Source: a virus
Taxonomy: Duplodnaviria; Heunggongvirae; Uroviricota; Caudoviricetes
DNA length: 40,062 bases
Direction: 5' to 3' (one strand)
Virus record (IMG/VR): IMGVR_UViG_2671180458_000005
Made by a program: the position numbers and the translations under genes
Part shown: piece by piece, positions 24,892-38,770 of the stretch
Layout of the letters: every line of letters begins with the position of its first letter
Position numbering within the stretch: position 1 is the first letter of the stretch
Notes under the pieces: generated by a model
Told to the model about the DNA's origin: nothing
The model's input: only the letters and a program-made list of their open reading frames with translations
Databases searched by the model: none

Positions 24892-25449
24892 TCAACAATG
24901 AATTTTTAGTAATTGCTCCACAGTCATATTTTTAATTGCGCTCCGGTTTACAAGAGTCCAGCCTTGTTTCTCCAGATAAAACTGGAAGGTATCCAGGGTG
25001 CAGACCATTGCGCCGTCCGGAACGGTTTCAGTGAATTTGATATTGCCGTGTTCGTCGAGACGGATAACCAGGGTACGTCCGTCCCCGTGAATCATTTTGT
25101 CGGGAGACGGGGCGTTATTCTGGCGCAGTTCTTTCTCCATGCGATCGAACTCAGCGATGTAGGCTTCTTTAAATGCAGCGGCTTTTTTGCCGGTGAAGCC
25201 CATCACCAGGAAAACGAAGCCGTTTTTGGTGATTTGGTACATTGGGAGTTTGCGACTGGTTGAGTCGGTATATTCGCTCGACACAAAATTGTGCTCAGTG
25301 AATTTTGCTGAACAGTCCAGATTGCGAATTTTATCCAACACTCGTTCGTGGCGTTTACCAAAGAACTCAGCGATCGCAATAGACGTAGTGACAGCGCGTC
25401 CATTTTCGATGGTTACGTCAGGGTGAGAAAGGGCAGGGATAGTAGCCAT
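24892..25449 (-). CDS. Rha-family phage regulatory protein
   Basis: Motifs FFGKRHERVLDKIRNL and PMYQITKNGFVFLVMGFTGKKAAAFKEAYIAEFDRME fit Rha family; start set at internal ATG 25449 (GAGG upstream); the longer ORF to 25746 crosses a hairpin plus T-run, so the true start is uncertain. Confidence 0.6.
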   Translation of the reverse strand: MATIPALSHPDVTIENGRAVTTSIAIAEFFGKRHERVLDKIRNLDCSAKFTEHNFVSSEYTDSTSRKLPMYQITKNGFVFLVMGFTGKKAAAFKEAYIAEFDRMEKELRQNNAPSPDKMIHGDGRTLVIRLDEHGNIKFTETVPDGAMVCTLDTFQFYLEKQGWTLVNRSAIKNMTVEQLLKIHC

Positions 25450-25929
25450 GATGGCAGCCTCGATAGTCAGTTTAAATAACTCACCACCAAGGCTTTCCAC
25501 GACCATAAGGGTGGTGAGACGTACAGGGGTGGAAATACCGGTGACTACCGAAACCGGCCAGCCTTTCGGCTGCCCTGCACGCCCCACCATAATCTGAATG
25601 TGGCTGTGCATTACGCATAAAAAAACCGCCTGAGCGCGGTTATGCGCAGTAGTCATCATCGGGTTTCCACGCCCGGCACCCGCTTTATGAGGTGCAGGTG
25701 CACTATAATTCCACCCATTCTGGTTTTCAATAGCTACATTCAACATTTTCTCTTACCCTTCATCACCGAAGTGAACTTTGTTGATGCAGTGCCTGGTGCC
25801 TCCAGGTGACGTTAACCAGTTAACAATTAACGCCGGATTGTTAGTTGATGTCTGTTACGCCAGTAAAAGACCGCTTGTTTTAACTGTTCCGCGTGCGCTT
25901 AGCCGCATTCACCGCATCACAAAATTCAC

Positions 25930-25992
25930 TTTAAAAAGGGTGGCAGAGCAGTCACGGAGTAGAACTGATGCCACCAAAGACTACACATGGGT
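25930..25992 (-). ncRNA. dicF: DicF-like small RNA
   Basis: Minus strand reads ...UCAGUUCUACUCCGUGACUGCUCUGCCACCCUUUUU, near-identical to the 3-prime two-thirds of E. coli DicF as recalled, including terminator hairpin and U-run; downstream flank also matches; 5-prime end less conserved and not mapped. Confidence 0.65.
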
Positions 25993-28365: not shown

Positions 28366-28433
28366 CCAACAATATTTATACCGGATTTCTTCCGGAAGTT
28401 CGTGGGTAAAGTTCGGTATCAGAAGAGGTGAGT

Positions 28434-29471
28434 ATGGCTAATGCCTGGCTCAGATTGTGGCATGACATGCCAAATGACCCCAAGTGGCGAACGATTGCCA
28501 GGGTATCAGGACAGCCAATCGCAACAGTGATGGCAGTGTATATCCATCTTCTGGTGAGCGCGTCACGAAATGTCACGACATGTCACGGCGTGTCACTACG
28601 TGGTCACATTGATGTCACGACGGAAGATTTAGCAAGTGCGCTTGATGTGACGGAAGACGTAATTGATTCAATTTTGCATGCAATGCAGGGGCGGGTTCTG
28701 GATGGTGACCTTATTTCCGGATGGGAAAAACGTCAGGTGCTGAAAGAGGACAATGGTAACGTTTCGCAAACGGCAAAATCCCCGGCAGAGCGCAAGAGAG
28801 CGCAGCGGGAGCGCGAAAAGCTGCGGAAATATGATGCTGATTGTCACGATGAGTCACGACGTGTCACGCATCTGTCACGACAAGTCACGACAGATAAAGA
28901 TACAGATACAGAATTAAACCCCACACATAACGCGCGCATGCGCGAGAGTGCTCCAACCGGTGAGTCGAATGGTGCGTCGTTGCAGACAGCCGAACCTGAA
29001 TTCCTGGACGGCCTGAGCGAACCGATCGGGAAATTTTCGATGACCACTGTCTGGCAGCCGTCGCCGGATTTTCGACAACGGGCAGCAGTGTGGGGTATGG
29101 CTCTGCCTGAGCCGGAATTTACACCTGCTGAGCTTGCCGCATTCCGGGATTACTGGATGGCGGAGGGGAAGGTTTTCACGCAGGTTCAGTGGGAGCAGAA
29201 ATTTGCCCGCCACGTGCAGCACGTCAGGGCACAGGTAAAACCAGTCAGCAAGGGGGTAAGCCATGCAGCATCAGGTGGCACGGCATCACGGGCAGTTCAG
29301 AAAATCCGGGCAGCACGAGAACAGTGGGAACGTGAAAACGGATTTATCAGCAACGGAAACGGCCTGGAAGCTGTGGGAACTTATGGGGGAGGTGTATTCG
29401 AACCGATGGACCCAGAAGAACGGGGCTGCGCCGTCGAAACTCTGGATTGCTCAGATTGGCGCGATGACTGA
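28434..29471 (+). CDS. Replication initiation protein (lambda O functional analogue, YdaU/DnaT-domain-like) containing origin iterons
   Basis: RBS GAGGTG then ATG 28434; two internal clusters of GTCAC(G) repeats at ~10-bp spacing; followed by P-like gene. Confidence 0.65.
   Translation: MANAWLRLWHDMPNDPKWRTIARVSGQPIATVMAVYIHLLVSASRNVTTCHGVSLRGHIDVTTEDLASALDVTEDVIDSILHAMQGRVLDGDLISGWEKRQVLKEDNGNVSQTAKSPAERKRAQREREKLRKYDADCHDESRRVTHLSRQVTTDKDTDTELNPTHNARMRESAPTGESNGASLQTAEPEFLDGLSEPIGKFSMTTVWQPSPDFRQRAAVWGMALPEPEFTPAELAAFRDYWMAEGKVFTQVQWEQKFARHVQHVRAQVKPVSKGVSHAASGGTASRAVQKIRAAREQWERENGFISNGNGLEAVGTYGGGVFEPMDPEERGCAVETLDCSDWRDD
28562..28889 (+). repeat. Putative replication origin: 11 GTCAC(G) iterons in two clusters (28562..28619 and 28843..28889)
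   Basis: Six repeats at spacing 10,10,10,11,11 and five at 10,10,11,10, helically phased, inside the O-like ORF. Confidence 0.65.
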
Positions 29472-29925
29472 ACAGCAAATCCGGCAGGTCTGCCGTCAGT
29501 GCATGGACCGCTGCCGGGCGGGTGAAACGTGGCCCCCGGACCTGGCTGAGTTTGTTGCGCTGATTTCGGAGAGTGAGGCAAATCCATTTGGTCTTACGGT
29601 GGATGCCGTGATGGAAGAGTACCGGCGCTGGCGCAATGAATCCTGGCGATACGACGGGAGTGATAAATACCCGTGGCCACAGCCTGTGCTGTACCACATC
29701 TGCCTCGAAATGCGTACCAGAGGGATTGAGCGCCAGATGACGCAGGGTGAGTTAAAACGACTTGCGGAACGGCAACTGACGAAATGGGCAAAGCATGTTG
29801 GTAACGGGATGAGTATTCCGCCGATCCGGAGGCAACTCGCATCGCCGAAGCGCCCGCAAGGGCCAACGCCAATTGAATTACTGAAACAGGAATACGAGCG
29901 CCGGAAGGCGGCTGGTTTTGTTTGA
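29263..29925 (+). CDS. Replication protein P-like (helicase loader)
   Basis: C-terminal two-thirds align by eye with lambda P (recalled). Overlaps O-like ORF by about 200 nt in another frame, so the start is uncertain. Confidence 0.6.
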   Translation: MQHQVARHHGQFRKSGQHENSGNVKTDLSATETAWKLWELMGEVYSNRWTQKNGAAPSKLWIAQIGAMTEQQIRQVCRQCMDRCRAGETWPPDLAEFVALISESEANPFGLTVDAVMEEYRRWRNESWRYDGSDKYPWPQPVLYHICLEMRTRGIERQMTQGELKRLAERQLTKWAKHVGNGMSIPPIRRQLASPKRPQGPTPIELLKQEYERRKAAGFV

Positions 29926-29958: not shown

Positions 29959-30633
29959 ATGGAAACCGTTTTTGACGCACTGCAAGCAATGGGAAAAGCC
30001 ACATCCATAGAACTTGCTGCGCGACTTGGTATCAGTCGTGAAGAAGTGCTGAACGAGTTGTGGGAACTGAAAAGAAATGGCGTCGTTGATAAAACGGGTC
30101 ACACCTGGTTTCTGGCTGGTAAAGGTGAATCCGGGGTAACCGAAGAGCAGCCAGCACAATCTGAAGTACCGGATGTGCTGACCGGGGAGGTCGAACAAAA
30201 AGTTACCGCGGACATGATGATTGAGTTTATCTGTCAGGATGGGGCTAAAACGTGTGAGGAACTGGCGGATAAGTTCGGTGTTAGCATTCGCAAGGTTGCT
30301 TCCACGTTGGCGGTCGTAACAGCAACGGGGCGCCTGGCACGCGTAAATCAGAACGGTAAATTTCGTTACTGCATACCGGGCGCTGATTTACCGGCAGAGC
30401 CGGAAGCTGCATCCGTAGCGGAAACCGATGGTAAAGCCTTTCCTCAGCCAGCAGGTGTTGCGTTACCAGTTCGGGAAGCGGAAACACAGGAAGAAATAAA
30501 AACGGAAAGTGTGGCGGTCACAGTGCAGTCACAGCCGTCGTTCACCAGAAAGCATCCGGATGGTCTGATTTTACCATCGCTGCATGTGGCTAACCGCGAG
30601 CTGCGCCGGGCAAAAGGTCAGGTTCAGAAGTGA
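29959..30633 (+). CDS. Hypothetical protein with winged-helix-like segments (DUF1627-like)
   Basis: Start ATG 29959 behind GGAGG; family assignment from memory only. Confidence 0.45.
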
Positions 30634-31034
30634 GAGCGAGTCTGCGCCGCGCTACGGGAGCTGAACAAGTGCCGGGATATTCTCCGGGATATTACCGCCA
30701 CCAGAGAACAGCAGCGGTGAGTGGCTGGAAGACGTGGTGCCGGGCTGAAATCCTGATACTCCGCCAGTGTGTGGGAACTATGAAGGTGAAAAGCATTGGC
30801 GCACTTATCGGACGAACTGAAGCGGCAGTGAGAACGAAGGCACTGGAGCTGGGCATCAGTATGATGTTACGTGGTGATTTTCACCCGTCGGCAAAATATT
30901 CACAGCGTGATATTGAGCTGGCGCGGCAACTGCATCAGCGCGGTGTACCCCGACGGGAAATTGCCGAAAAGTTCGGAATGAAGTTGCGTGCAGTGAATAA
31001 CTACGTTTATTTCGACAGGAGGATTCAGGCGTGA
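30630..31034 (+). CDS. Hypothetical protein with C-terminal HTH-like segment
   Basis: GTG start overlapping previous stop; alternative start ATG 30780; C-terminal [18 protein letters not shown] looks HTH-like. Confidence 0.4.
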
Positions 31035-31336
31035 GGGTGAGAATTTATATCGCCGGTCCGATGACGGGATATGAAAATTTCAACCGCGAGGCGTTTCACA
31101 GGGCGGAAGAAGCGCTGAAACGGGAAGGGCATACCGTTTTAAACCCGGCAGTACTTCCGGACGGGCTGACTCAGCCACATTACATGGATATTTGCATGGC
31201 AATGATTCGTTGTGTGGATGCAATTTACATGCTGAAAGGCTGGCAGCGGTCGGCAGGCGCTAAGGCAGAACTGGCACTGGCAGAGAAACTGGGACATGCG
31301 GTGATTTTCCAGGAGGCAACCAGTGAGCGAAATTAA
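31031..31336 (+). CDS. Nucleoside 2-deoxyribosyltransferase-like protein (DUF4406-like)
   Basis: 101 aa; GTG start behind AGGAGG; N-terminal RIYIAGPMTG...F motif characteristic of the deoxyribosyltransferase-like fold. Confidence 0.6.
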   Translation: MRVRIYIAGPMTGYENFNREAFHRAEEALKREGHTVLNPAVLPDGLTQPHYMDICMAMIRCVDAIYMLKGWQRSAGAKAELALAEKLGHAVIFQEATSERN

Positions 31337-31483
31337 TTACCAGGAACTACGGCAGGTGAAAGAGAAAGCATAATCCAGAACTGAATAATTAAAATCAGCA
31401 CTGTAAATAAAATTTAATCCTTAACCGGAGGGATTTCTGCACCCTCAGAACATCAGGAGACCGCCCGGCAGGGCGGTAGTGAA

Positions 31484-31666
31484 ATGCGAAAGTTCAAAAT
31501 AATTATTGAAACGGGAATAGCCGGTGGAGATTTTGAGGATGTATTCGAAGTGGACGATGACGCAACACCTGATGAAATTCATGACGAAGCAAAAGAAATT
31601 TTCTTTAACTACTGCAATTACTCATATCACGAAATAAAAGACGAAGAGGAAGAACAAAATGGCTGA
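31484..31666 (+). CDS. Small highly acidic protein (hypothetical)
   Basis: 60 aa, about one third Asp/Glu; stop overlaps start of next small ORF (ATGGCTGA). Confidence 0.5.
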   Translation: MRKFKIIIETGIAGGDFEDVFEVDDDATPDEIHDEAKEIFFNYCNYSYHEIKDEEEEQNG

Positions 31667-32549: not shown

Positions 32550-32849
32550 TTATAAGAAATCGGTTTCATAACTTTGCCCACCATGATAGATACCGACAAT
32601 AAAGACTTTTCTGCCATCAACGGCAAAAGCAATAATCGTTCTGTGGCGGAAATGAGTTACCCGCATCCCCTGGCGAATATCATCGCGTTTATTGCCCCGA
32701 TGCGGGAATGTAGAAAACCCATCAAGATAATCAAGAAGCGCATTGGCATAATTGTCAGCAATGACGTTCCCTGCTTTCTCCGTTATATATCTGTGCAGGT
32801 TGATTATTTGTTGTTCGGCCTCAGGAGTAATGATGACTTCATATGTCAT
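32550..32849 (-). CDS. parE: ParE-family type II toxin
   Basis: 99 aa; immediately downstream of ParD-like gene on same strand. Confidence 0.7.
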   Translation of the reverse strand: MTYEVIITPEAEQQIINLHRYITEKAGNVIADNYANALLDYLDGFSTFPHRGNKRDDIRQGMRVTHFRHRTIIAFAVDGRKVFIVGIYHGGQSYETDFL

Positions 32850-32854
32850 GCAGA

Positions 32855-33112
32855 TTACTTCCCGGATCGAATCGCGGCGCGAACCTGTGAAATGGAGCGT
32901 CCGTTGTTTGGGTTTTCGCGGATAGAATCAAGAGAGGGGGCGGCTGAATGCGTTAACCACGCTTCGATTGCTTTATCGCGCTCATTCAGTGCGCGAAGCC
33001 CTTCACGAATGACCTCGCTTTCTGAAGCATAGGCACCGGAAGCCACACGGGCGCGCACCATGTCAGCCATCTCGTTAGTTAATGTAATGCTGAATTGTTG
33101 GGTTGTACGCAT
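32855..33112 (-). CDS. parD: ParD-family (RHH) antitoxin
   Basis: Start at ATG 33112 (MRTTQQFSITLTNEMADMVRARV...), GAGG upstream. Confidence 0.65.
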   Translation of the reverse strand: MRTTQQFSITLTNEMADMVRARVASGAYASESEVIREGLRALNERDKAIEAWLTHSAAPSLDSIRENPNNGRSISQVRAAIRSGK

Positions 33113-33247
33113 GGTAAACCTCACGGAGTAGGATAGAACACTATTCGATGATAGCACGCTGCCTGTTGACGACAACAGAAATCAGAGACAATATTGCCGC
33201 ACGCCAGCCTGAACAACTGGCACCTGCTGCGCCAGCAGAGACAACCG

Positions 33248-36356: not shown

Positions 36357-37415
36357 ATGCTTAACACTGTAAAAATATCCAGTTGTGAGTTAATCAACGC
36401 CGACTGCCTGGAATTTATCCGGTCGTTACCCGAAAATTCTGTTGACCTGATAGTCACGGATCCGCCGTACTTTAAAGTGAAGCCTGAGGGCTGGGATAAC
36501 CAGTGGAAGGGCGACGATGATTACCTGAAGTGGCTGGACCAGTGTCTGGCGCAGTTCTGGCGGGTGCTGAAACCTGCCGGAAGTCTTTACCTGTTCTGTG
36601 GCCATCGCCTGGCATCTGATATCGAAATCATGATGCGTGAACGCTTCAGTGTGCTGAACCATATTATCTGGGCAAAGCCGTCCGGACGCTGGAACGGGTG
36701 CAACAAGGAAAGCCTGAGGGCGTATTTCCCCGCCACAGAGCGCATTCTGTTCGCGGAACATTATCAGGGGCCGTATCGTCCGAAAGATGCCGGGTATGAG
36801 GCGAAGGGCAGGGCACTGAAACAGCATGTGATGGCTCCGCTGATTGCTTACTTTCGTGATGCGCGTGCTGCCCTGGGGATAACGGCAAAACAGATAGTGG
36901 ATGCCACAGGAAAGAAAAACATGGTGTCGCACTGGTTCAGTGCCAGTCAGTGGCAACTGCCGAACGAAAGTGATTATCTGAAATTACAGGCGCTGTTTGC
37001 CCGGGTGGCAGAAGAGAAGCATCAGCGGGGTGAACTGGAGAAGCCCCACCACCAGCTGCTGGAGACGTATACTTCACTGAACCGGCAGTATGCGGAACTG
37101 CAGAGTGAATATAAGCATCTGCGGCGGTATTTTGGCGTGACGGCGCAGGTGCCGTACACCGATGTGTGGACGCATAAACCGGTGCAGTACTATCCCGGGA
37201 AACATCCGTGCGAAAAACCGGCAGAAATGCTGCAGCAGATAATCAGCGCGAGCAGTCGTCCGGGGGACCTGGTTGCAGATTTTTTCATGGGGTCGGGTTC
37301 GACAGTCAAAGCCGCGATGGCACTGGGGCGTCGTGCAACTGGTGTTGAGCTGGAGACTGAACGTTTTGAGCAGACGGTCAGGGAAGTTCAGGATTTAGCC
37401 AGTCAGAACGGATGA
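36357..37415 (+). CDS. DNA methyltransferase (N6-adenine/N4-cytosine type, no cognate endonuclease seen)
   Basis: 352 aa; motif IV LIVTDPPY near N-terminus and motif I FMGSGST near C-terminus. Confidence 0.85.
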   Translation: MLNTVKISSCELINADCLEFIRSLPENSVDLIVTDPPYFKVKPEGWDNQWKGDDDYLKWLDQCLAQFWRVLKPAGSLYLFCGHRLASDIEIMMRERFSVLNHIIWAKPSGRWNGCNKESLRAYFPATERILFAEHYQGPYRPKDAGYEAKGRALKQHVMAPLIAYFRDARAALGITAKQIVDATGKKNMVSHWFSASQWQLPNESDYLKLQALFARVAEEKHQRGELEKPHHQLLETYTSLNRQYAELQSEYKHLRRYFGVTAQVPYTDVWTHKPVQYYPGKHPCEKPAEMLQQIISASSRPGDLVADFFMGSGSTVKAAMALGRRATGVELETERFEQTVREVQDLASQNG

Positions 37416-37455: not shown

Positions 37456-37531
37456 GGCCCTTTAGCTCAGTGGTGAGAGCGAGCGACTCATAATCGCCAG
37501 GTCGCTGGTTCAAATCCAGCAAGGGCCACCA
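37456..37531 (+). tRNA. tRNA with CAU anticodon (Ile2-lysidine type or Met), ileZ-like
   Basis: 76 nt; acceptor GGCCCTT/AAGGGCC; anticodon loop CTCATAA; T-loop GGTTCAAATCC; ends CCA. Confidence 0.8.
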
Positions 37532-37540
37532 TATCACATA

Positions 37541-37617
37541 CCGCCATTAGCTCATCGGGATAGAGCGTCAGCCTTCGAAGCTGGTTGCGCGGGGTTCGAG
37601 TCCTCGATGGCGGTCCA
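37541..37617 (+). tRNA. tRNA-Arg (anticodon UCG), argN-like
   Basis: 77 nt; acceptor CCGCCAT/ATGGCGG; anticodon loop CTTCGAA; GGTTCGAGTCC T-arm; ends CCA. Confidence 0.7.
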
Positions 37618-37630
37618 TTATCGGTATTCA

Positions 37631-37707
37631 GCGTTGTTAGCTCAGCCGGACAGAGCAATTGCCTTCTAAGCAATCGGTCACTGGTTCGAATCCAGTACAA
37701 CGCGCCA
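37631..37707 (+). tRNA. tRNA-Arg (anticodon UCU), argO-like
   Basis: 77 nt; acceptor GCGTTGT/ACAACGC; anticodon loop CTTCTAA; GGTTCGAATCC T-arm; ends CCA. Confidence 0.8.
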
Positions 37708-37876: not shown

Positions 37877-38308
37877 ATGTTTGGTATTTTCAAAAAGAAA
37901 ACCCGCAGAGCAGCAGCGGAAATTAAAAAGTTTGAGAAACGTGATCTGGCACAGGCGGTTATTAATGCTGCCTACCTGGTAGCCTATGCAGATGGTGAAT
38001 GTGAGGCTTCAGAGAAAGCGAAGATCGAGCAGGTCTTGCGTAACCAGCCAGCGTTGTCCGCGTTTACGTCAGAAATTAATGCTATCAGTGCCACGATCAC
38101 AGGTCAGCTTGACACCAACTTTAAAATTGGTCGTCGAGCGGCGTTGCGTGAAATTGAAGATGTGAAACACGATACGCGTGAAGCGGAAGATGTGCTGGAT
38201 GTGGCGGTGGCCATTGCTGAAGCAGATGGTGAAATTGAGCCGGAAGAGCGTAAGGTTCTGGAAGAGATTGCTGGTGTTCTTGGCCTGCGACTGGAGAACC
38301 ACCTGTGA
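37877..38308 (+). CDS. TerB-like domain protein
   Basis: 143 aa; two AxADGE motifs (AYADGECEASEKAKI and AEADGEIEPEERKVLEEI) typical of TerB fold; AAAGGA RBS. Confidence 0.6.
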   Translation: MFGIFKKKTRRAAAEIKKFEKRDLAQAVINAAYLVAYADGECEASEKAKIEQVLRNQPALSAFTSEINAISATITGQLDTNFKIGRRAALREIEDVKHDTREAEDVLDVAVAIAEADGEIEPEERKVLEEIAGVLGLRLENHL

Positions 38309-38469: not shown

Positions 38470-38717
38470 CCGGGTATCAGTCATGCCCCGAAAATTTTAA
38501 ATGTCTCACAATTCAGACGGTTGACAGTTGTCTGTTTTGCGGGGAGTTTGTTAAAAGAAACAGGCATGGTGAATCCCCCTGAGCGGAGGGGCGACTGGTG
38601 CATTAGGTGTTATCTTTGATACCCAGGAAAGTAAACGCGCGGGTTTGGTGGCACCGGGCTGAACTCACCGGGAGGCACCCGGCATCATGCGCATGATGAT
38701 ACAGATACGCGGCTTTA

Positions 38718-38741
38718 GCCCCTCTCCGGAGGGGCTTTTAT
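38718..38741 (+). terminator. Rho-independent terminator
   Basis: GCCCCTC-TCCG-GAGGGGC followed by TTTTATAT. Confidence 0.6.
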
Positions 38742-38770
38742 ATGAATTTTGTAAGATATGAGTAAACTAA

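What the first reader, a model, noticed from the sequence alone, without database searches (positions are those of the whole stretch)
31031..31336. Nucleoside 2-deoxyribosyltransferase-like (DUF4406-like) protein in the nin-like region
The RIYIAGPMTG motif marks a nucleoside deoxyribosyltransferase/Rcl-like fold. Enzymes of this fold process nucleosides or nucleotides, so in a phage it could serve nucleotide salvage or degrade nucleotide second messengers used by host defence; function here is unknown.
Basis: inference. Interest (0 to 1): 0.45.

Follow-up and report, generated by a model that had tools for sequence, protein, structure and literature searches.

The report
Small DUF4406 nucleotide-glycosidase-like prophage gene
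This is a real, well-conserved 101-residue gene of a Rac-like lambdoid E. coli phage that belongs to the already catalogued but never characterised DUF4406 family, a stripped-down relative of enzymes that cut the base off nucleotides; it is common and ordinary as an annotation, and its actual job is still unknown.

Summary
The ORF at 31031-31336 (+) is real. It has a GTG start, an AGGAGG Shine-Dalgarno 8 nt upstream and a GTGA start/stop overlap with the upstream HTH gene. dN/dS is about 0.08 and 82 of 82 related copies are intact. It matches Pfam DUF4406 over its full length (E 8.5e-37) and misses the PF05014 cut-off. RefSeq already names a 99%-identical nucleotide copy "DUF4406 domain-containing protein", and 1214 of 5426 complete E. 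coli genomes carry the gene. The AlphaFold model (pLDDT 88) matches nucleoside deoxyribosyltransferases, MilB and DNPH1/Rcl, and more weakly TIR domains.

Profile alignments place these residues:
- Glu80 on the catalytic nucleophile.
- Tyr6 on the catalytic Tyr.
- Ser74/Gly76 and the G9-P-M-T-G13 loop on the 5'-phosphate-binding elements of NMP/dNMP N-glycosidases. True transferases have Asp at the Ser74 position.

Two things depart from those enzymes. The general-acid Asp position is Cys55, and the protein ends 21 residues after the Glu, so it lacks the C-terminal part of the related enzymes.

My best guess (about 0.45) is a stand-alone deoxynucleotide N-glycosidase or phosphodeoxyribosyl-transferase that edits nucleotide pools in early lytic growth. 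Anti-defence roles are not excluded and nothing supports them. I found no functional literature. Interest is low to moderate.

The parts
31031..31336 (+). Coding sequence of the 101-aa DUF4406 protein, including the TAA stop. GTG start; an alternative GTG start lies at 31037.
   Evidence: ORF list and sequence. Pfam PF14359 E 8.5e-37. RefSeq annotates the 99.3%-identical nucleotide copy with the same boundaries as 'DUF4406 domain-containing protein' WP_044808070.1. dN/dS about 0.08.
31017..31022 (+). Shine-Dalgarno-like AGGAGG, 8 nt upstream of the GTG start.
   Evidence: Read directly from the sequence.
30630..31034 (+). Upstream gene for a 134-aa HTH/DNA-binding protein (PHROG 323). Its TGA stop overlaps the DUF4406 start as GTGA at 31031-31034, which suggests translational coupling within the early-right operon.
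   Evidence: This neighbour class sits upstream in 41 of 83 loci and a LygF-like protein in another 41. No promoter-like or terminator-like site lies around the gene.
31046..31048 (+). Codon for Tyr6, the equivalent of the catalytic Tyr (NDT Tyr7, human DNPH1 Tyr24, DmtZ Tyr6).
   Evidence: Tyr in 237 and Phe in 19 of 258 family sequences. The YIAGP motif aligns with TbPDT YIAGP. The role of this Tyr is described in the DmtZ paper PMC12884076.
31055..31069 (+). Codons for the G9-P10-M11-T12-G13 loop after strand 1. It is predicted to bind the 5'-phosphate and stack on the base (compare BlsM AGPFMG, DNPH1 GSIRGG, MilB Phe22-Arg23).
   Evidence: G9 in 256/258, P10 in 244/259, M11 in 238/261 and G13 in 250/261 sequences. 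Aligned to BlsM.
31193..31195 (+). Codon for Cys55, which sits at the position of the general-acid/ligand-binding Asp of the superfamily (NDT Asp72, human DNPH1 Asp80, MilB Asp78, Asn in TbPDT and DmtZ).
   Evidence: Profile alignments to TbPDT, LmPDT, BcmB, BlsM and MilB. The spacing rule [D/N/C]-x7-D-x10-12-[D/S]-x-G-x3-E was checked on verified sequences with MilB numbering. Family-wide the position is C 214, D 20, T 9 of 265.
31250..31258 (+). Codons for Ser74-Ala75-Gly76. Ser74 and Gly76 are the equivalents of the phosphate-binding Ser/Gly of NMP/dNMP N-glycosidases (MilB Ser97/Gly99, rat DNPH1 Ser87/Gly89). Nucleoside transferases have Asp at the Ser position.
   Evidence: S74 in 254/256 and G76 in 250/254 sequences. 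Alignments. Ligand contacts.
31268..31270 (+). Codon for Glu80, the predicted catalytic nucleophile.
   Evidence: E in 250 of 252 family sequences. It aligns with the catalytic Glu of TbPDT, BlsM, MilB and BcmB, six residues after Ser74 as in NDT (D92/E98), DNPH1 (S98/E104) and MilB (S97/E103).

Best explanation
The ORF encodes a small stand-alone enzyme of the N-(deoxy)ribosyltransferase-like superfamily, Pfam family DUF4406. It is transcribed with the early-right operon of a Rac-like lambdoid phage, between the replication genes and Q, and is probably translationally coupled to the upstream HTH gene.

Inferred mechanism:
- Like its relatives it probably works as a homodimer.
- It binds a 2'-deoxyribonucleoside 5'-monophosphate, or a closely related 5'-phosphorylated (deoxy)ribosyl compound. 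The phosphate would be held by the G9-P-M-T-G13 loop and Ser74/Gly76, and the base would stack on Met11.
- Glu80, positioned by Tyr6, attacks C1' to form a covalent (deoxy)ribosyl-enzyme intermediate and releases the free base.
- Water then resolves the intermediate (N-glycosidase) or another base does (phosphodeoxyribosyl transfer).
- The biological effect would be editing or sanitising the nucleotide pool while the phage replicates.

Shown here: the gene is real and under purifying selection; it belongs to the family; it has the fold; the listed residues occupy those positions and are conserved.
Inferred only: the dimer, the substrate class, the chemistry and the biological role.

Two features differ from every characterised relative, so base specificity and even the exact substrate cannot be read off by homology. 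Cys55 sits where the general-acid Asp/Asn normally is. The chain also ends 21 residues after the nucleophile, so it lacks the C-terminal part in which rat DNPH1 carries the partner-subunit contacts (printed as Ser17', and Met119').
For: Family and reality of the gene:
- Pfam DUF4406 E 8.5e-37 and PHROG 355 E 6.6e-48.
- dN/dS about 0.08 and 82/82 intact copies.
- Present in 1214/5426 complete E. coli genomes, in 325 phage records across Vibrio, Arthrobacter, Aeromonas, Pseudomonas, Mycobacterium and other hosts, and in 12,357 50%-identity clusters.

Fold:
- AF2 model pLDDT 88.2, pTM 0.82.
- Foldseek top 30 are almost all NDT/PDT, MilB, DNPH1 or BcmB, with TM about 0.7 on the query length.

Sequence link:
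- A broad DUF4406 profile hits T. brucei PDT at E 2.1e-5 over the full length, and the CMP N-glycosidases BcmB, BlsM and MilB at E 0.07-0.17.

Active site:
- Those alignments put E80 on the catalytic Glu and S74/G76 on MilB Ser97/Gly99. The same position is Asp in TbPDT. AGPMTG aligns with BlsM AGPFMG.
- MilB Ser97/Gly99 and rat DNPH1 Ser87/Gly89 plus loop backbone amides bind the 5'-phosphate.
- Hydrolases carry uncharged small residues where transferases carry Asp/Asn for the 5'-OH, and the catalytic Tyr is said to exclude ribosylated substrates.
- S74, G76, E80, G9 and G13 are each conserved in at least 95% of 267 aligned domain sequences from the collected homologues.

Precedent: a phage-encoded NDT-like protein, DmtZ, is an experimentally proven dAMP N-glycosidase/transferase.

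Stand-alone action: upstream neighbours fall into only 2 main classes, but there are 18 different downstream neighbours in 83 loci. Fusion partners carry no recognisable domain.
Against: - No biochemical or genetic data exist for any DUF4406 protein in the searched literature.
- The general-acid Asp position is Cys55. Family-wide it is C/D/T/A/G/S, so it is not strictly conserved.
- The C-terminal third of NDT/DNPH1/MilB is missing: Foldseek TM normalised on the target is only about 0.5. The partner-subunit residues that complete the site in DNPH1 (Met119' and a partner-subunit Ser) therefore have no counterpart. The pocket may be open and take a larger or different substrate.
- The residue equivalences rest on low-scoring profile alignments and a spacing rule. 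I could not inspect a 3D superposition, because the tools do not return model coordinates or structural alignments.
- The best-scoring solved relatives by sequence and by Foldseek are nucleoside transferases (TbPDT), not nucleotide hydrolases.
- No neighbouring nucleotide-metabolism gene points to a pathway.
Confidence: 0.45

Rival explanations
1. It is a genuine nucleoside 2'-deoxyribosyltransferase that swaps bases between deoxynucleosides for salvage. This is the label PHROGs and many phage annotations give it.
For: - The best sequence-profile and Foldseek hits are T. brucei and L. mexicana purine deoxyribosyltransferases (E 2.1e-5; E 3e-5).
- The YIAGP motif is shared with them.
- PHROG 355 carries the label 'nucleoside 2-deoxyribosyltransferase'.
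- Conserved prolines follow strand 2 (P39, P43). The DmtZ paper describes a conserved Pro as typical of transferases.
Against: - It scores below the Pfam PF05014 cut-off (16.5 against 28.8 bits).
- The residue that binds the 5'-OH in transferases (Asp92 in L. leichmannii NDT, Asp in TbPDT) is an essentially invariant Ser, as in nucleotide hydrolases.
- The general-acid Asp/Asn position is Cys55.
- The C-terminal part of the NDT chain is absent; from my own knowledge of L. leichmannii NDT, that part supplies Asn123' and the C-terminal carboxylate of the partner subunit.
- Three of four phage PF05014 NDTs tested in one study showed no transglycosylation with dA, dG or dZ, so the label is unreliable even for closer family members.
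Confidence: 0.12
2. It is a counter-defence enzyme. It would cleave an N-glycosidic bond in NAD+-derived or other nucleotide immune signals (Thoeris cADPR isomers and similar), or destroy toxic nucleotide analogues made by host defences. It would use the TIR/NDT-type catalytic Glu in an open active site.
For: - The missing C-terminal part predicts a more open pocket.
- The gene sits in a mosaic accessory region next to a recombination junction (18 downstream classes) and near other accessory genes such as ParDE. It is phage-borne in every context I examined.
- Related small DUFs of this fold have recently turned out to be NADases (DUF4062). NDT-like domains act on adenine nucleotides or NAD in retron Ec86.
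Against: - There is no direct evidence of any kind.
- Sequence similarity points to NDT and NMP-glycosidases rather than to TIR.
- No hit in PADLOC, although that library holds defence rather than anti-defence models.
- No paper links this family to defence or counter-defence.
- The conserved Ser/Gly phosphate motif fits a simple mononucleotide.
Confidence: 0.12
3. It is a non-catalytic nucleotide-binding protein, a sponge or regulator, that has kept the binding pocket of the fold but not full catalytic machinery.
For: - Cys occupies the general-acid Asp position, and that position varies across the family.
- The protein is very small and lacks the residues that complete the partner subunit's site.
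- From my own knowledge, phage sponges for nucleotide signals are typically small stand-alone proteins.
Against: - The nucleophile Glu80 (250/252), Ser74 (254/256) and Tyr6 (237 Tyr plus 19 Phe of 258) are conserved as expected for catalysis.
- Characterised active relatives tolerate Asn at the general-acid position (TbPDT and DmtZ).
Confidence: 0.08

Closest known systems
DUF4406 (Pfam PF14359; PHROG 355), uncharacterised phage and prophage proteins
   Same: Full-length match at E 8.5e-37. All family signature residues are present. The size (about 95-105 aa) and the phage early-region context are the same. RefSeq already labels a 99%-identical nucleotide copy with this name.
   Different: Nothing distinguishes it from the family; it is a typical enterobacterial member. 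The family itself has no assigned function.
DNPH1/Rcl, 2'-deoxynucleoside 5'-phosphate N-hydrolase (5-hydroxymethyl-dUMP N-hydrolase)
   Different: Human Asp80 (general acid) corresponds to Cys55 here. DNPH1 continues about 60 residues past the Glu and supplies partner-subunit residues (printed as Ser17', and Met119', rat numbering); this protein stops after 21. There is no significant pairwise sequence similarity.
MilB / BlsM / BcmB CMP (hydroxymethyl-CMP) N-glycosidases
   Different: These enzymes are ribo-specific; the aligned BlsM residue at the catalytic-Tyr position is Phe, whereas this protein has Tyr6. MilB Asp78 corresponds to Cys55. MilB Arg23, the gate that reads the 5-hydroxymethyl group, corresponds to Thr12. 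They are about 60 residues longer.
DmtZ of Z-genome actinophages (dAMP N-glycosidase / phosphodeoxyribosyl transferase, NAR 2026, PMC12884076)
   Same: A phage-encoded, NDT-like, stand-alone or fused small enzyme that acts on a dNMP to reshape the nucleotide pool. It has the Tyr6/Glu103 catalytic pair and uncharged residues at the 5'-phosphate pocket.
   Different: DmtZ is about 145 aa and has Asn77 at the general-acid position. It sits next to or is fused with DutZ in PurZ0 phages. This window has no PurZ, DatZ or Dut context, and there is no sign of modified DNA.
Nucleoside 2'-deoxyribosyltransferases (PF05014: L. leichmannii NDT, T. brucei PDT)
   Same: Closest solved relatives by sequence profile (E 2.1e-5) and by Foldseek (E 3e-5). 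They share YIAGP and the catalytic Glu.
   Different: It scores below the PF05014 gathering cut-off. Ser replaces the Asp that binds the 5'-OH, and Cys replaces the Asp/Asn general acid. The C-terminal part of the chain is missing.
DUF1937 (PDB 1t1j, a structural-genomics hypothetical protein, target APC5043)
   Different: It is also uncharacterised, so it says nothing about function. The hit is below the Pfam cut-off (22.2 against 23 bits).
TIR-domain NADases (SARM1, ThsB, DUF4062)
   Different: I detected no sequence-level relationship. The phosphate-type Ser-x-Gly-x3-Glu motif and the YIAGP strand are NDT-like, not TIR-like.

Membership tests
DUF4406 (Pfam PF14359) | Score at or above Pfam's gathering threshold, over the full domain. 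| tested here: met
   125.9 bits against a cut-off of 22, E 8.5e-37, profile positions 2-91 of 91.
DUF4406 (Pfam PF14359) | Family signature residues: YIAGPMTG, NR..F, LNPA.LP.GL, YM.IC.AM and GW..S.GA..E. | tested here: met
   All are present in the window protein. Conservation was measured in 33 sequences and in 267 aligned domain sequences.
Nucleoside 2'-deoxyribosyltransferase (Pfam PF05014) | Score at or above Pfam's gathering threshold. | tested here: not met
   16.5 bits against a cut-off of 28.8, E 0.0092.
Nucleoside 2'-deoxyribosyltransferase (Pfam PF05014) | Catalytic Glu nucleophile and the Tyr on strand 1. | tested here: met
   Glu80 and Tyr6 align with the TbPDT catalytic Glu and with YIAGP. 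Both are highly conserved.
Nucleoside 2'-deoxyribosyltransferase (Pfam PF05014) | An Asp six residues before the Glu that binds the 5'-OH of the nucleoside (Asp92 in L. leichmannii NDT). | tested here: not met
   The position is Ser74, and it is Ser in 254 of 256 family sequences. The NDT sequence and numbering were verified.
Nucleoside 2'-deoxyribosyltransferase (Pfam PF05014) | The general-acid Asp/Asn (Asp72 in NDT, Asn in TbPDT). | tested here: not met
   Cys55 occupies the aligned position and the position given by the spacing rule. Caveat: the alignment is low-scoring and I inspected no 3D superposition.
Nucleoside 2'-deoxyribosyltransferase (Pfam PF05014) | A C-terminal segment that supplies partner-subunit active-site residues (Asn123' and the C-terminal Tyr157; these two residues are from my own knowledge of L. 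leichmannii NDT). | tested here: not met
   The protein ends 21 residues after Glu80, whereas L. leichmannii NDT continues 59 residues after Glu98. Foldseek TM is about 0.5 when normalised on the target length.
dNMP/NMP N-glycosidases (DNPH1/Rcl, MilB/BlsM, DmtZ) | Same fold, with the catalytic Glu and a Tyr or Phe on strand 1. | tested here: met
dNMP/NMP N-glycosidases (DNPH1/Rcl, MilB/BlsM, DmtZ) | An uncharged Ser six residues before the Glu, a Gly four residues before it, and a Gly-containing loop after strand 1, which together bind the 5'-phosphate. | tested here: met
   Ser74/Gly76 align with the S-P-G of BcmB, BlsM and MilB. G9...G13 match BlsM AGPFMG and DNPH1 GSIRG.
dNMP/NMP N-glycosidases (DNPH1/Rcl, MilB/BlsM, DmtZ) | An Asp/Asn that contacts the sugar and the base (human DNPH1 Asp80, MilB Asp78, DmtZ Asn77). 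| tested here: not met
   The position is Cys55. Only about 8% of family representatives have Asp there.
dNMP/NMP N-glycosidases (DNPH1/Rcl, MilB/BlsM, DmtZ) | [quoted passage not shown] | not testable with these tools
   This needs an enzyme assay. No published assay of any DUF4406 protein turned up.
dNMP/NMP N-glycosidases (DNPH1/Rcl, MilB/BlsM, DmtZ) | A homodimer with a composite active site. | not testable with these tools
   Only single-chain prediction is offered, and no coordinates are returned.
TIR-type NADases | Sequence membership in a TIR-family profile, and the catalytic Glu in the TIR position. | tested here: inconclusive
Known anti-phage defence proteins (PADLOC-DB) | A match to any model in the library. 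| tested here: not met
   0 families at E <= 0.01.

The most novel reading that the evidence does not exclude
DUF4406 proteins could be a widespread class of minimal phage N-glycosidases with a non-canonical active site (Tyr, Cys/Tyr51 and Glu, open because the C-terminal part is missing). Their real substrate would not be a normal nucleotide but a host-made immune molecule: a NAD-derived or nucleotide-derived signal, or a toxic or chain-terminating nucleotide analogue. That would make this a new family of counter-defence enzymes carried by about a fifth of complete E. coli genomes.
Probability: 0.1. Interest if true: 0.7.

Novelty: already known. Interest (0 to 1): 0.28.

Why it matters
As an annotation this adds nothing new. 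The gene is already labelled DUF4406 in RefSeq and is present in 1214 of 5426 complete E. coli genomes and in hundreds of phage records.

It matters only as a pointer to an open question. A very common, strongly conserved, phage-restricted mini-enzyme of the nucleotide N-glycosidase fold has no known substrate. Existing database labels on this family ('nucleoside 2-deoxyribosyltransferase', 'MazG-like pyrophosphatase', 'deoxycytidylate deaminase', 'CMP N-glycosidase') disagree with one another, and the last three sit on proteins in which I could detect only a DUF4406 domain (the first two checked against Pfam).

The residue analysis here narrows the experiment. Ser74 and the Gly loop point to a 5'-phosphate, Tyr6 points to a 2'-deoxy sugar, Cys55 replaces the usual Asp, and the C-terminal part is missing. 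The obvious design is to test dNMPs first, then NAD/ADPR-type and immune-signal molecules, using E80Q, S74D and C55D mutants.

If the substrate turned out to be an immune signal or a toxic nucleotide, the family would be a significant new counter-defence class. If it is an ordinary dNMP, it would extend the DNPH1/DmtZ type of pool editing to temperate coliphages.

Tried and rejected
1. Direct sequence search of the PDB with the protein and with a narrow 33-sequence profile gave nothing meaningful. hhalign of that profile against single DNPH1 and NDT sequences also failed. Only a broader 75-sequence profile gave usable alignments.

2. I first took Asp53 (the YMDIC motif) to be the catalytic Asp and then rejected this. 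It is conserved in only 185 of 265 family sequences. It covaries with position 60, including charge swaps (D-R, R/H-D, P-D/N/E), which suggests a structural ion pair. The alignments and the -8 spacing from the strand-3 Asp both put the canonical Asp at Cys55.

3. Domain fusions as a clue to function led nowhere. About 40 longer homologues were scanned against Pfam and 10 against PHROGs. The extra parts match nothing informative: one HTH and some unknown PHROGs.

4. The PHROG and GenBank labels 'MazG-like pyrophosphatase' and 'deoxycytidylate deaminase' suggested a pathway link. The proteins so labelled (Arthrobacter phages Crewmate gp31 and Galaxy gp50) contain only a DUF4406 domain, so I regard the labels as noise.

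5. I looked for a conserved partner gene and found none. There are two main alternative upstream genes and 18 different downstream genes in 83 loci. Contexts in Vibrio, Klebsiella, Arthrobacter and Mycobacterium phages and in metagenomic prophages share only the general 'early / replication / nin-like' location. DNA methyltransferases recur nearby in several phages, but I did not test this statistically.

6. The gene has no promoter-like or terminator-like site of its own that would mark a moron.

7. NCBIfam and PADLOC gave no hits.

8. Literature searches for DUF4406, DUF1937, PF14359/IPR025518, and NDT together with anti-defence or Thoeris found only annotation mentions and work on other families.

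With the narrow alignment it returned only close E. coli prophage copies. Those were useful for dN/dS and neighbour analysis but added no diversity.
Full report
**Observation**

The window holds an ORF at 31031-31336 on the + strand: 101 codons with a GTG start. Its product is [101 protein letters not shown].

An AGGAGG sequence lies 8 nt upstream of the start (31017-31022). The GTG overlaps the TGA stop of the preceding ORF (30630-31034) as GTGA, which is the usual sign of translational coupling. A second in-frame GTG at 31037 would give the 99-aa form seen in some homologues.

No sigma-70-like promoter or intrinsic terminator flanks the gene. It therefore reads as part of the long rightward early transcript and not as an autonomous moron.

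**Is it a real gene?**

Yes.
- Pfam DUF4406 (PF14359) matches at E 8.5e-37, 125.9 bits against a cut-off of 22, over 90 of 91 profile positions.
- PHROG 355 matches at E 6.6e-48.
- 82 related copies from E. coli prophages and viral contigs are all intact (98-101 aa). Twenty-three same-length alleles give mean dS 0.276, mean dN 0.023 and a ratio of 0.08.
- 1214 of 5426 complete E. coli genomes carry it. RefSeq calls the 99.3%-identical nucleotide copy 'DUF4406 domain-containing protein' with the same boundaries.
- The family is large: 612 hits in the word-indexed search, 12,357 50%-identity clusters at E <= 1e-3, and 325 phage records from Vibrio, Arthrobacter, Aeromonas, Pseudomonas, Mycobacterium, Klebsiella, Rhizobium and other hosts.

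**Context**

The window is a Rac-like lambdoid phage. It runs through tail genes, integrase, an 814-aa RecE-type exonuclease, a Rha/anti-repressor-like regulator and a cI-like repressor. Then come a CII/YdaT-like protein, O-like and P-like replication proteins, DUF1627, a small HTH protein and the DUF4406 gene. After it come DUF7167, two small ORFs, a ParE/ParD pair on the other strand, DUF968/HNH, RusA, Q, a DNA methyltransferase and three tRNAs.

The 'nin-like region' description is therefore right. In the inducible phage Rac-SA53 the same gene ('rac19') sits in the same place. A metagenomic lambdoid prophage has it directly after its DnaB helicase gene. In Vibrio phage Her it lies between Roi-like and RNase H-like genes and the lysis genes.

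Among 83 loci the upstream neighbour falls into two main classes: this HTH protein or a LygF-like protein, 41 loci each. The downstream neighbour falls into 18 classes. The gene therefore has no conserved partner and sits at a mosaic junction.

**Fold**

An AlphaFold2 model built from 33 homologues is confident (pLDDT 88.2, pTM 0.82). It is a four-stranded alpha/beta core: E4-8, H19-31, E35-37, H48-60, E64-67, H75-87, E90-93.

Foldseek agrees. Its top 30 hits are almost all NDT/PDT, MilB, DNPH1 or BcmB (best E 3e-5). TM is about 0.7 on the query length but only about 0.5 on the target length, so this protein is a truncated core of those enzymes.

By sequence, a broad 75-member DUF4406 profile reaches T. 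brucei purine deoxyribosyltransferase at E 2.1e-5 over its whole length. It reaches the CMP N-glycosidases BcmB, BlsM and MilB at E 0.07-0.17. The protein does not reach Pfam's PF05014 cut-off (16.5 against 28.8 bits).

**Active-site comparison**

I confirmed the human DNPH1 and L. leichmannii NDT sequences against the PDB. I took residue roles from the literature:
- In rat DNPH1, Ser87, a partner-subunit Ser (printed as Ser17') and the backbone amides of Ile18, Arg19, Gly20 and Gly89 hold the phosphate. Glu93 holds the sugar.
- In MilB, Ser97 and Gly99 bind the phosphate, Asp78 binds sugar and base, Phe22 stacks on the base and Arg23 gates entry. The E103A mutant is catalytically inactive.
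- In DmtZ the triad is Tyr6, Asn77 and Glu103. Hydrolases carry uncharged small residues where transferases have Asp/Asn for the 5'-OH, and the Tyr is said to exclude ribosylated substrates.

The superfamily shares the frame [D/N]-x7-D-x10-12-[D/S]-x-G-x3-E:

| Protein | General acid | Strand-3 Asp | 5'-group binder | Nucleophile |
|---|---|---|---|---|
| L. leichmannii NDT | D72 | D80 | D92 | E98 |
| Human DNPH1 | D80 | D88 | S98 | E104 |
| MilB | D78 | D86 | S97 | E103 |
| This protein | C55 | D63 | S74 | E80 |

The profile alignments give the same equivalences independently. E80 falls on the catalytic Glu. S74/G76 fall on the S-P-G of BcmB, BlsM and MilB, where TbPDT has Asp. C55 falls on MilB Asp78 and on the TbPDT/LmPDT Asn. 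YIAGP matches TbPDT YIAGP, and AGPMTG matches BlsM AGPFMG.

Across 267 aligned domain sequences from the collected homologues, conservation is:
- E80 in 250/252
- S74 in 254/256
- G76 in 250/254
- G9 in 256/258
- G13 in 250/261
- Tyr6 as Tyr in 237 and Phe in 19 of 258
- Y51 in 261/265
- F22 in 262/262

Position 55 is Cys in 214, Asp in 20 and Thr/Ala/Gly/Ser in the rest. Asp53, which I first took for the catalytic Asp, is conserved in only 185/265. It covaries with position 60, including charge swaps, which points to a structural ion pair.

So the nucleophile, the Tyr and the phosphate-type Ser/Gly elements are present. The general-acid Asp is not. The chain also ends 21 residues after the Glu, so the partner-subunit residues that complete the site in DNPH1 have no counterpart.

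**Interpretation**

The pattern is that of a nucleotide (5'-phosphate) N-glycosidase of the DNPH1/MilB/DmtZ kind and not of a nucleoside transferase. Tyr6 favours a 2'-deoxy substrate.

Covalent catalysis by Glu80 would release the base, followed by hydrolysis or transfer. This is the most economical mechanism. There is a direct precedent in phage DmtZ, a proven dAMP glycosidase/transferase.

I put this at about 0.45, for four reasons:
1. No DUF4406 protein has been assayed.
2. Cys55 and the missing C-terminal part are real departures, and they could open the site to other substrates.
3. The residue equivalences come from weak alignments. I could not inspect a 3D superposition.
4. Nothing in the neighbourhood defines a pathway.

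The rivals are:
- True nucleoside transferase (0.12). The Ser74, Cys55, truncation and PF05014 cut-off results count against it.
- Counter-defence hydrolase of NAD-derived or nucleotide signals or of toxic analogues (0.12). This is compatible with the TIR-like fold, the open site, the accessory location and recent discoveries for sister DUFs. It has no positive evidence.
- Non-catalytic binder (0.08). The near-invariance of Glu80 counts against it.

**Comparison with what is known, and novelty**

The protein is a typical member of an already catalogued family, and identical or near-identical copies are already annotated as such. The finding is therefore 'already known' as an annotation, while the family's function remains open.

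Database labels on family members are inconsistent: NDT, CMP N-glycosidase, MazG-like pyrophosphatase, dCMP deaminase and hydrolase. For the two I checked, the protein contains only the DUF4406 domain.

The only added value here is the residue-level prediction (5'-phosphate, 2'-deoxy, non-canonical Cys55, truncated core). It makes a focused biochemical test straightforward.

**Verdict**

Interest is low to moderate (0.28). The most novel reading still open is a new family of phage counter-defence N-glycosidases, with a probability of about 0.1.

Noticed in passing
window 25507-25594 (-), 25619-25695 (-), 25938-25989 (-): Three Rfam matches above gathering score lie in the early-left/immunity-proximal region: C4 antisense RNA (79 bits), isrK Hfq-binding sRNA (63.5 bits) and DicF (61 bits). 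They overlap or flank the 284-aa Rha/anti-repressor-like gene at 24892-25746.
   Followed up: no
window 38535-38747 (+): A full-length match to the gammaproteobacterial sRNA STnc100 (139 bits, E 7e-31) lies downstream of the Q/methyltransferase/tRNA block.
   Followed up: no
window 37456-37707 (+): A cluster of three tRNA genes sits directly after the DNA methyltransferase gene (36357-37415): tRNA-Met (CAT), tRNA-Arg (TCG) and tRNA-Arg (TCT). From my own knowledge this resembles the tRNA cluster found downstream of Q in Stx-type lambdoid phages.
   Followed up: partly
window 32550-32849 (-) and 32855-33175 (-): A ParE/RelE-type toxin and ParD-type antitoxin pair is inserted on the opposite strand inside the nin-like region, about 1.2 kb downstream of the DUF4406 gene.
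   Followed up: partly
window 31337-31483: An AT-rich 147-bp intergenic spacer lies right after the DUF4406 stop. It ends in a GC-rich hairpin (ACCGCCC-GGCA-GGGCGGT, about 31459-31476) a few bases before the ATG of the DUF7167 gene at 31484. The fold z-score of the region is -2.3. It coincides with a mosaic junction: 18 different downstream genes occur in 83 related loci, and the megablast matches break here.
   Followed up: partly
window 29263-29925 versus 28428-29471 (+): The O-like (347 aa) and P-like (220 aa as listed) ORFs overlap by about 200 nt in different frames in the mechanical ORF list. RefSeq starts the P-like gene later, at 462 nt, in the related genome, so the true P start is probably internal.
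   Followed up: no
L002 (Arthrobacter phage Galaxy gp50), L003 (Arthrobacter phage Crewmate gp31): GenBank products 'deoxycytidylate deaminase' and 'MazG-like pyrophosphatase' are attached to 122-128-aa proteins in which Pfam detects only a DUF4406 domain (plus a sub-threshold PF05014 hit). These are likely annotation errors that have also spread into a PHROG label, phrog_12019.
   Followed up: yes
window 37877-38308 (+): A 143-aa ORF matches PHROG 632, labelled 'tellurite resistance' (E 1.8e-69), in the region between the tRNAs and STnc100.
   Followed up: no
L007 (Klebsiella phage Kpn74), L002 (Arthrobacter phage Galaxy), phage hit H79 (Mycobacterium phage Island3), and the Brachyspira prophage of PMC8845278: A DNA methyltransferase gene recurs within a few genes of the DUF4406 gene in unrelated phages, and lies 5 kb downstream in this window. 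This may simply reflect a shared early-region location. I did not test it statistically.
   Followed up: no
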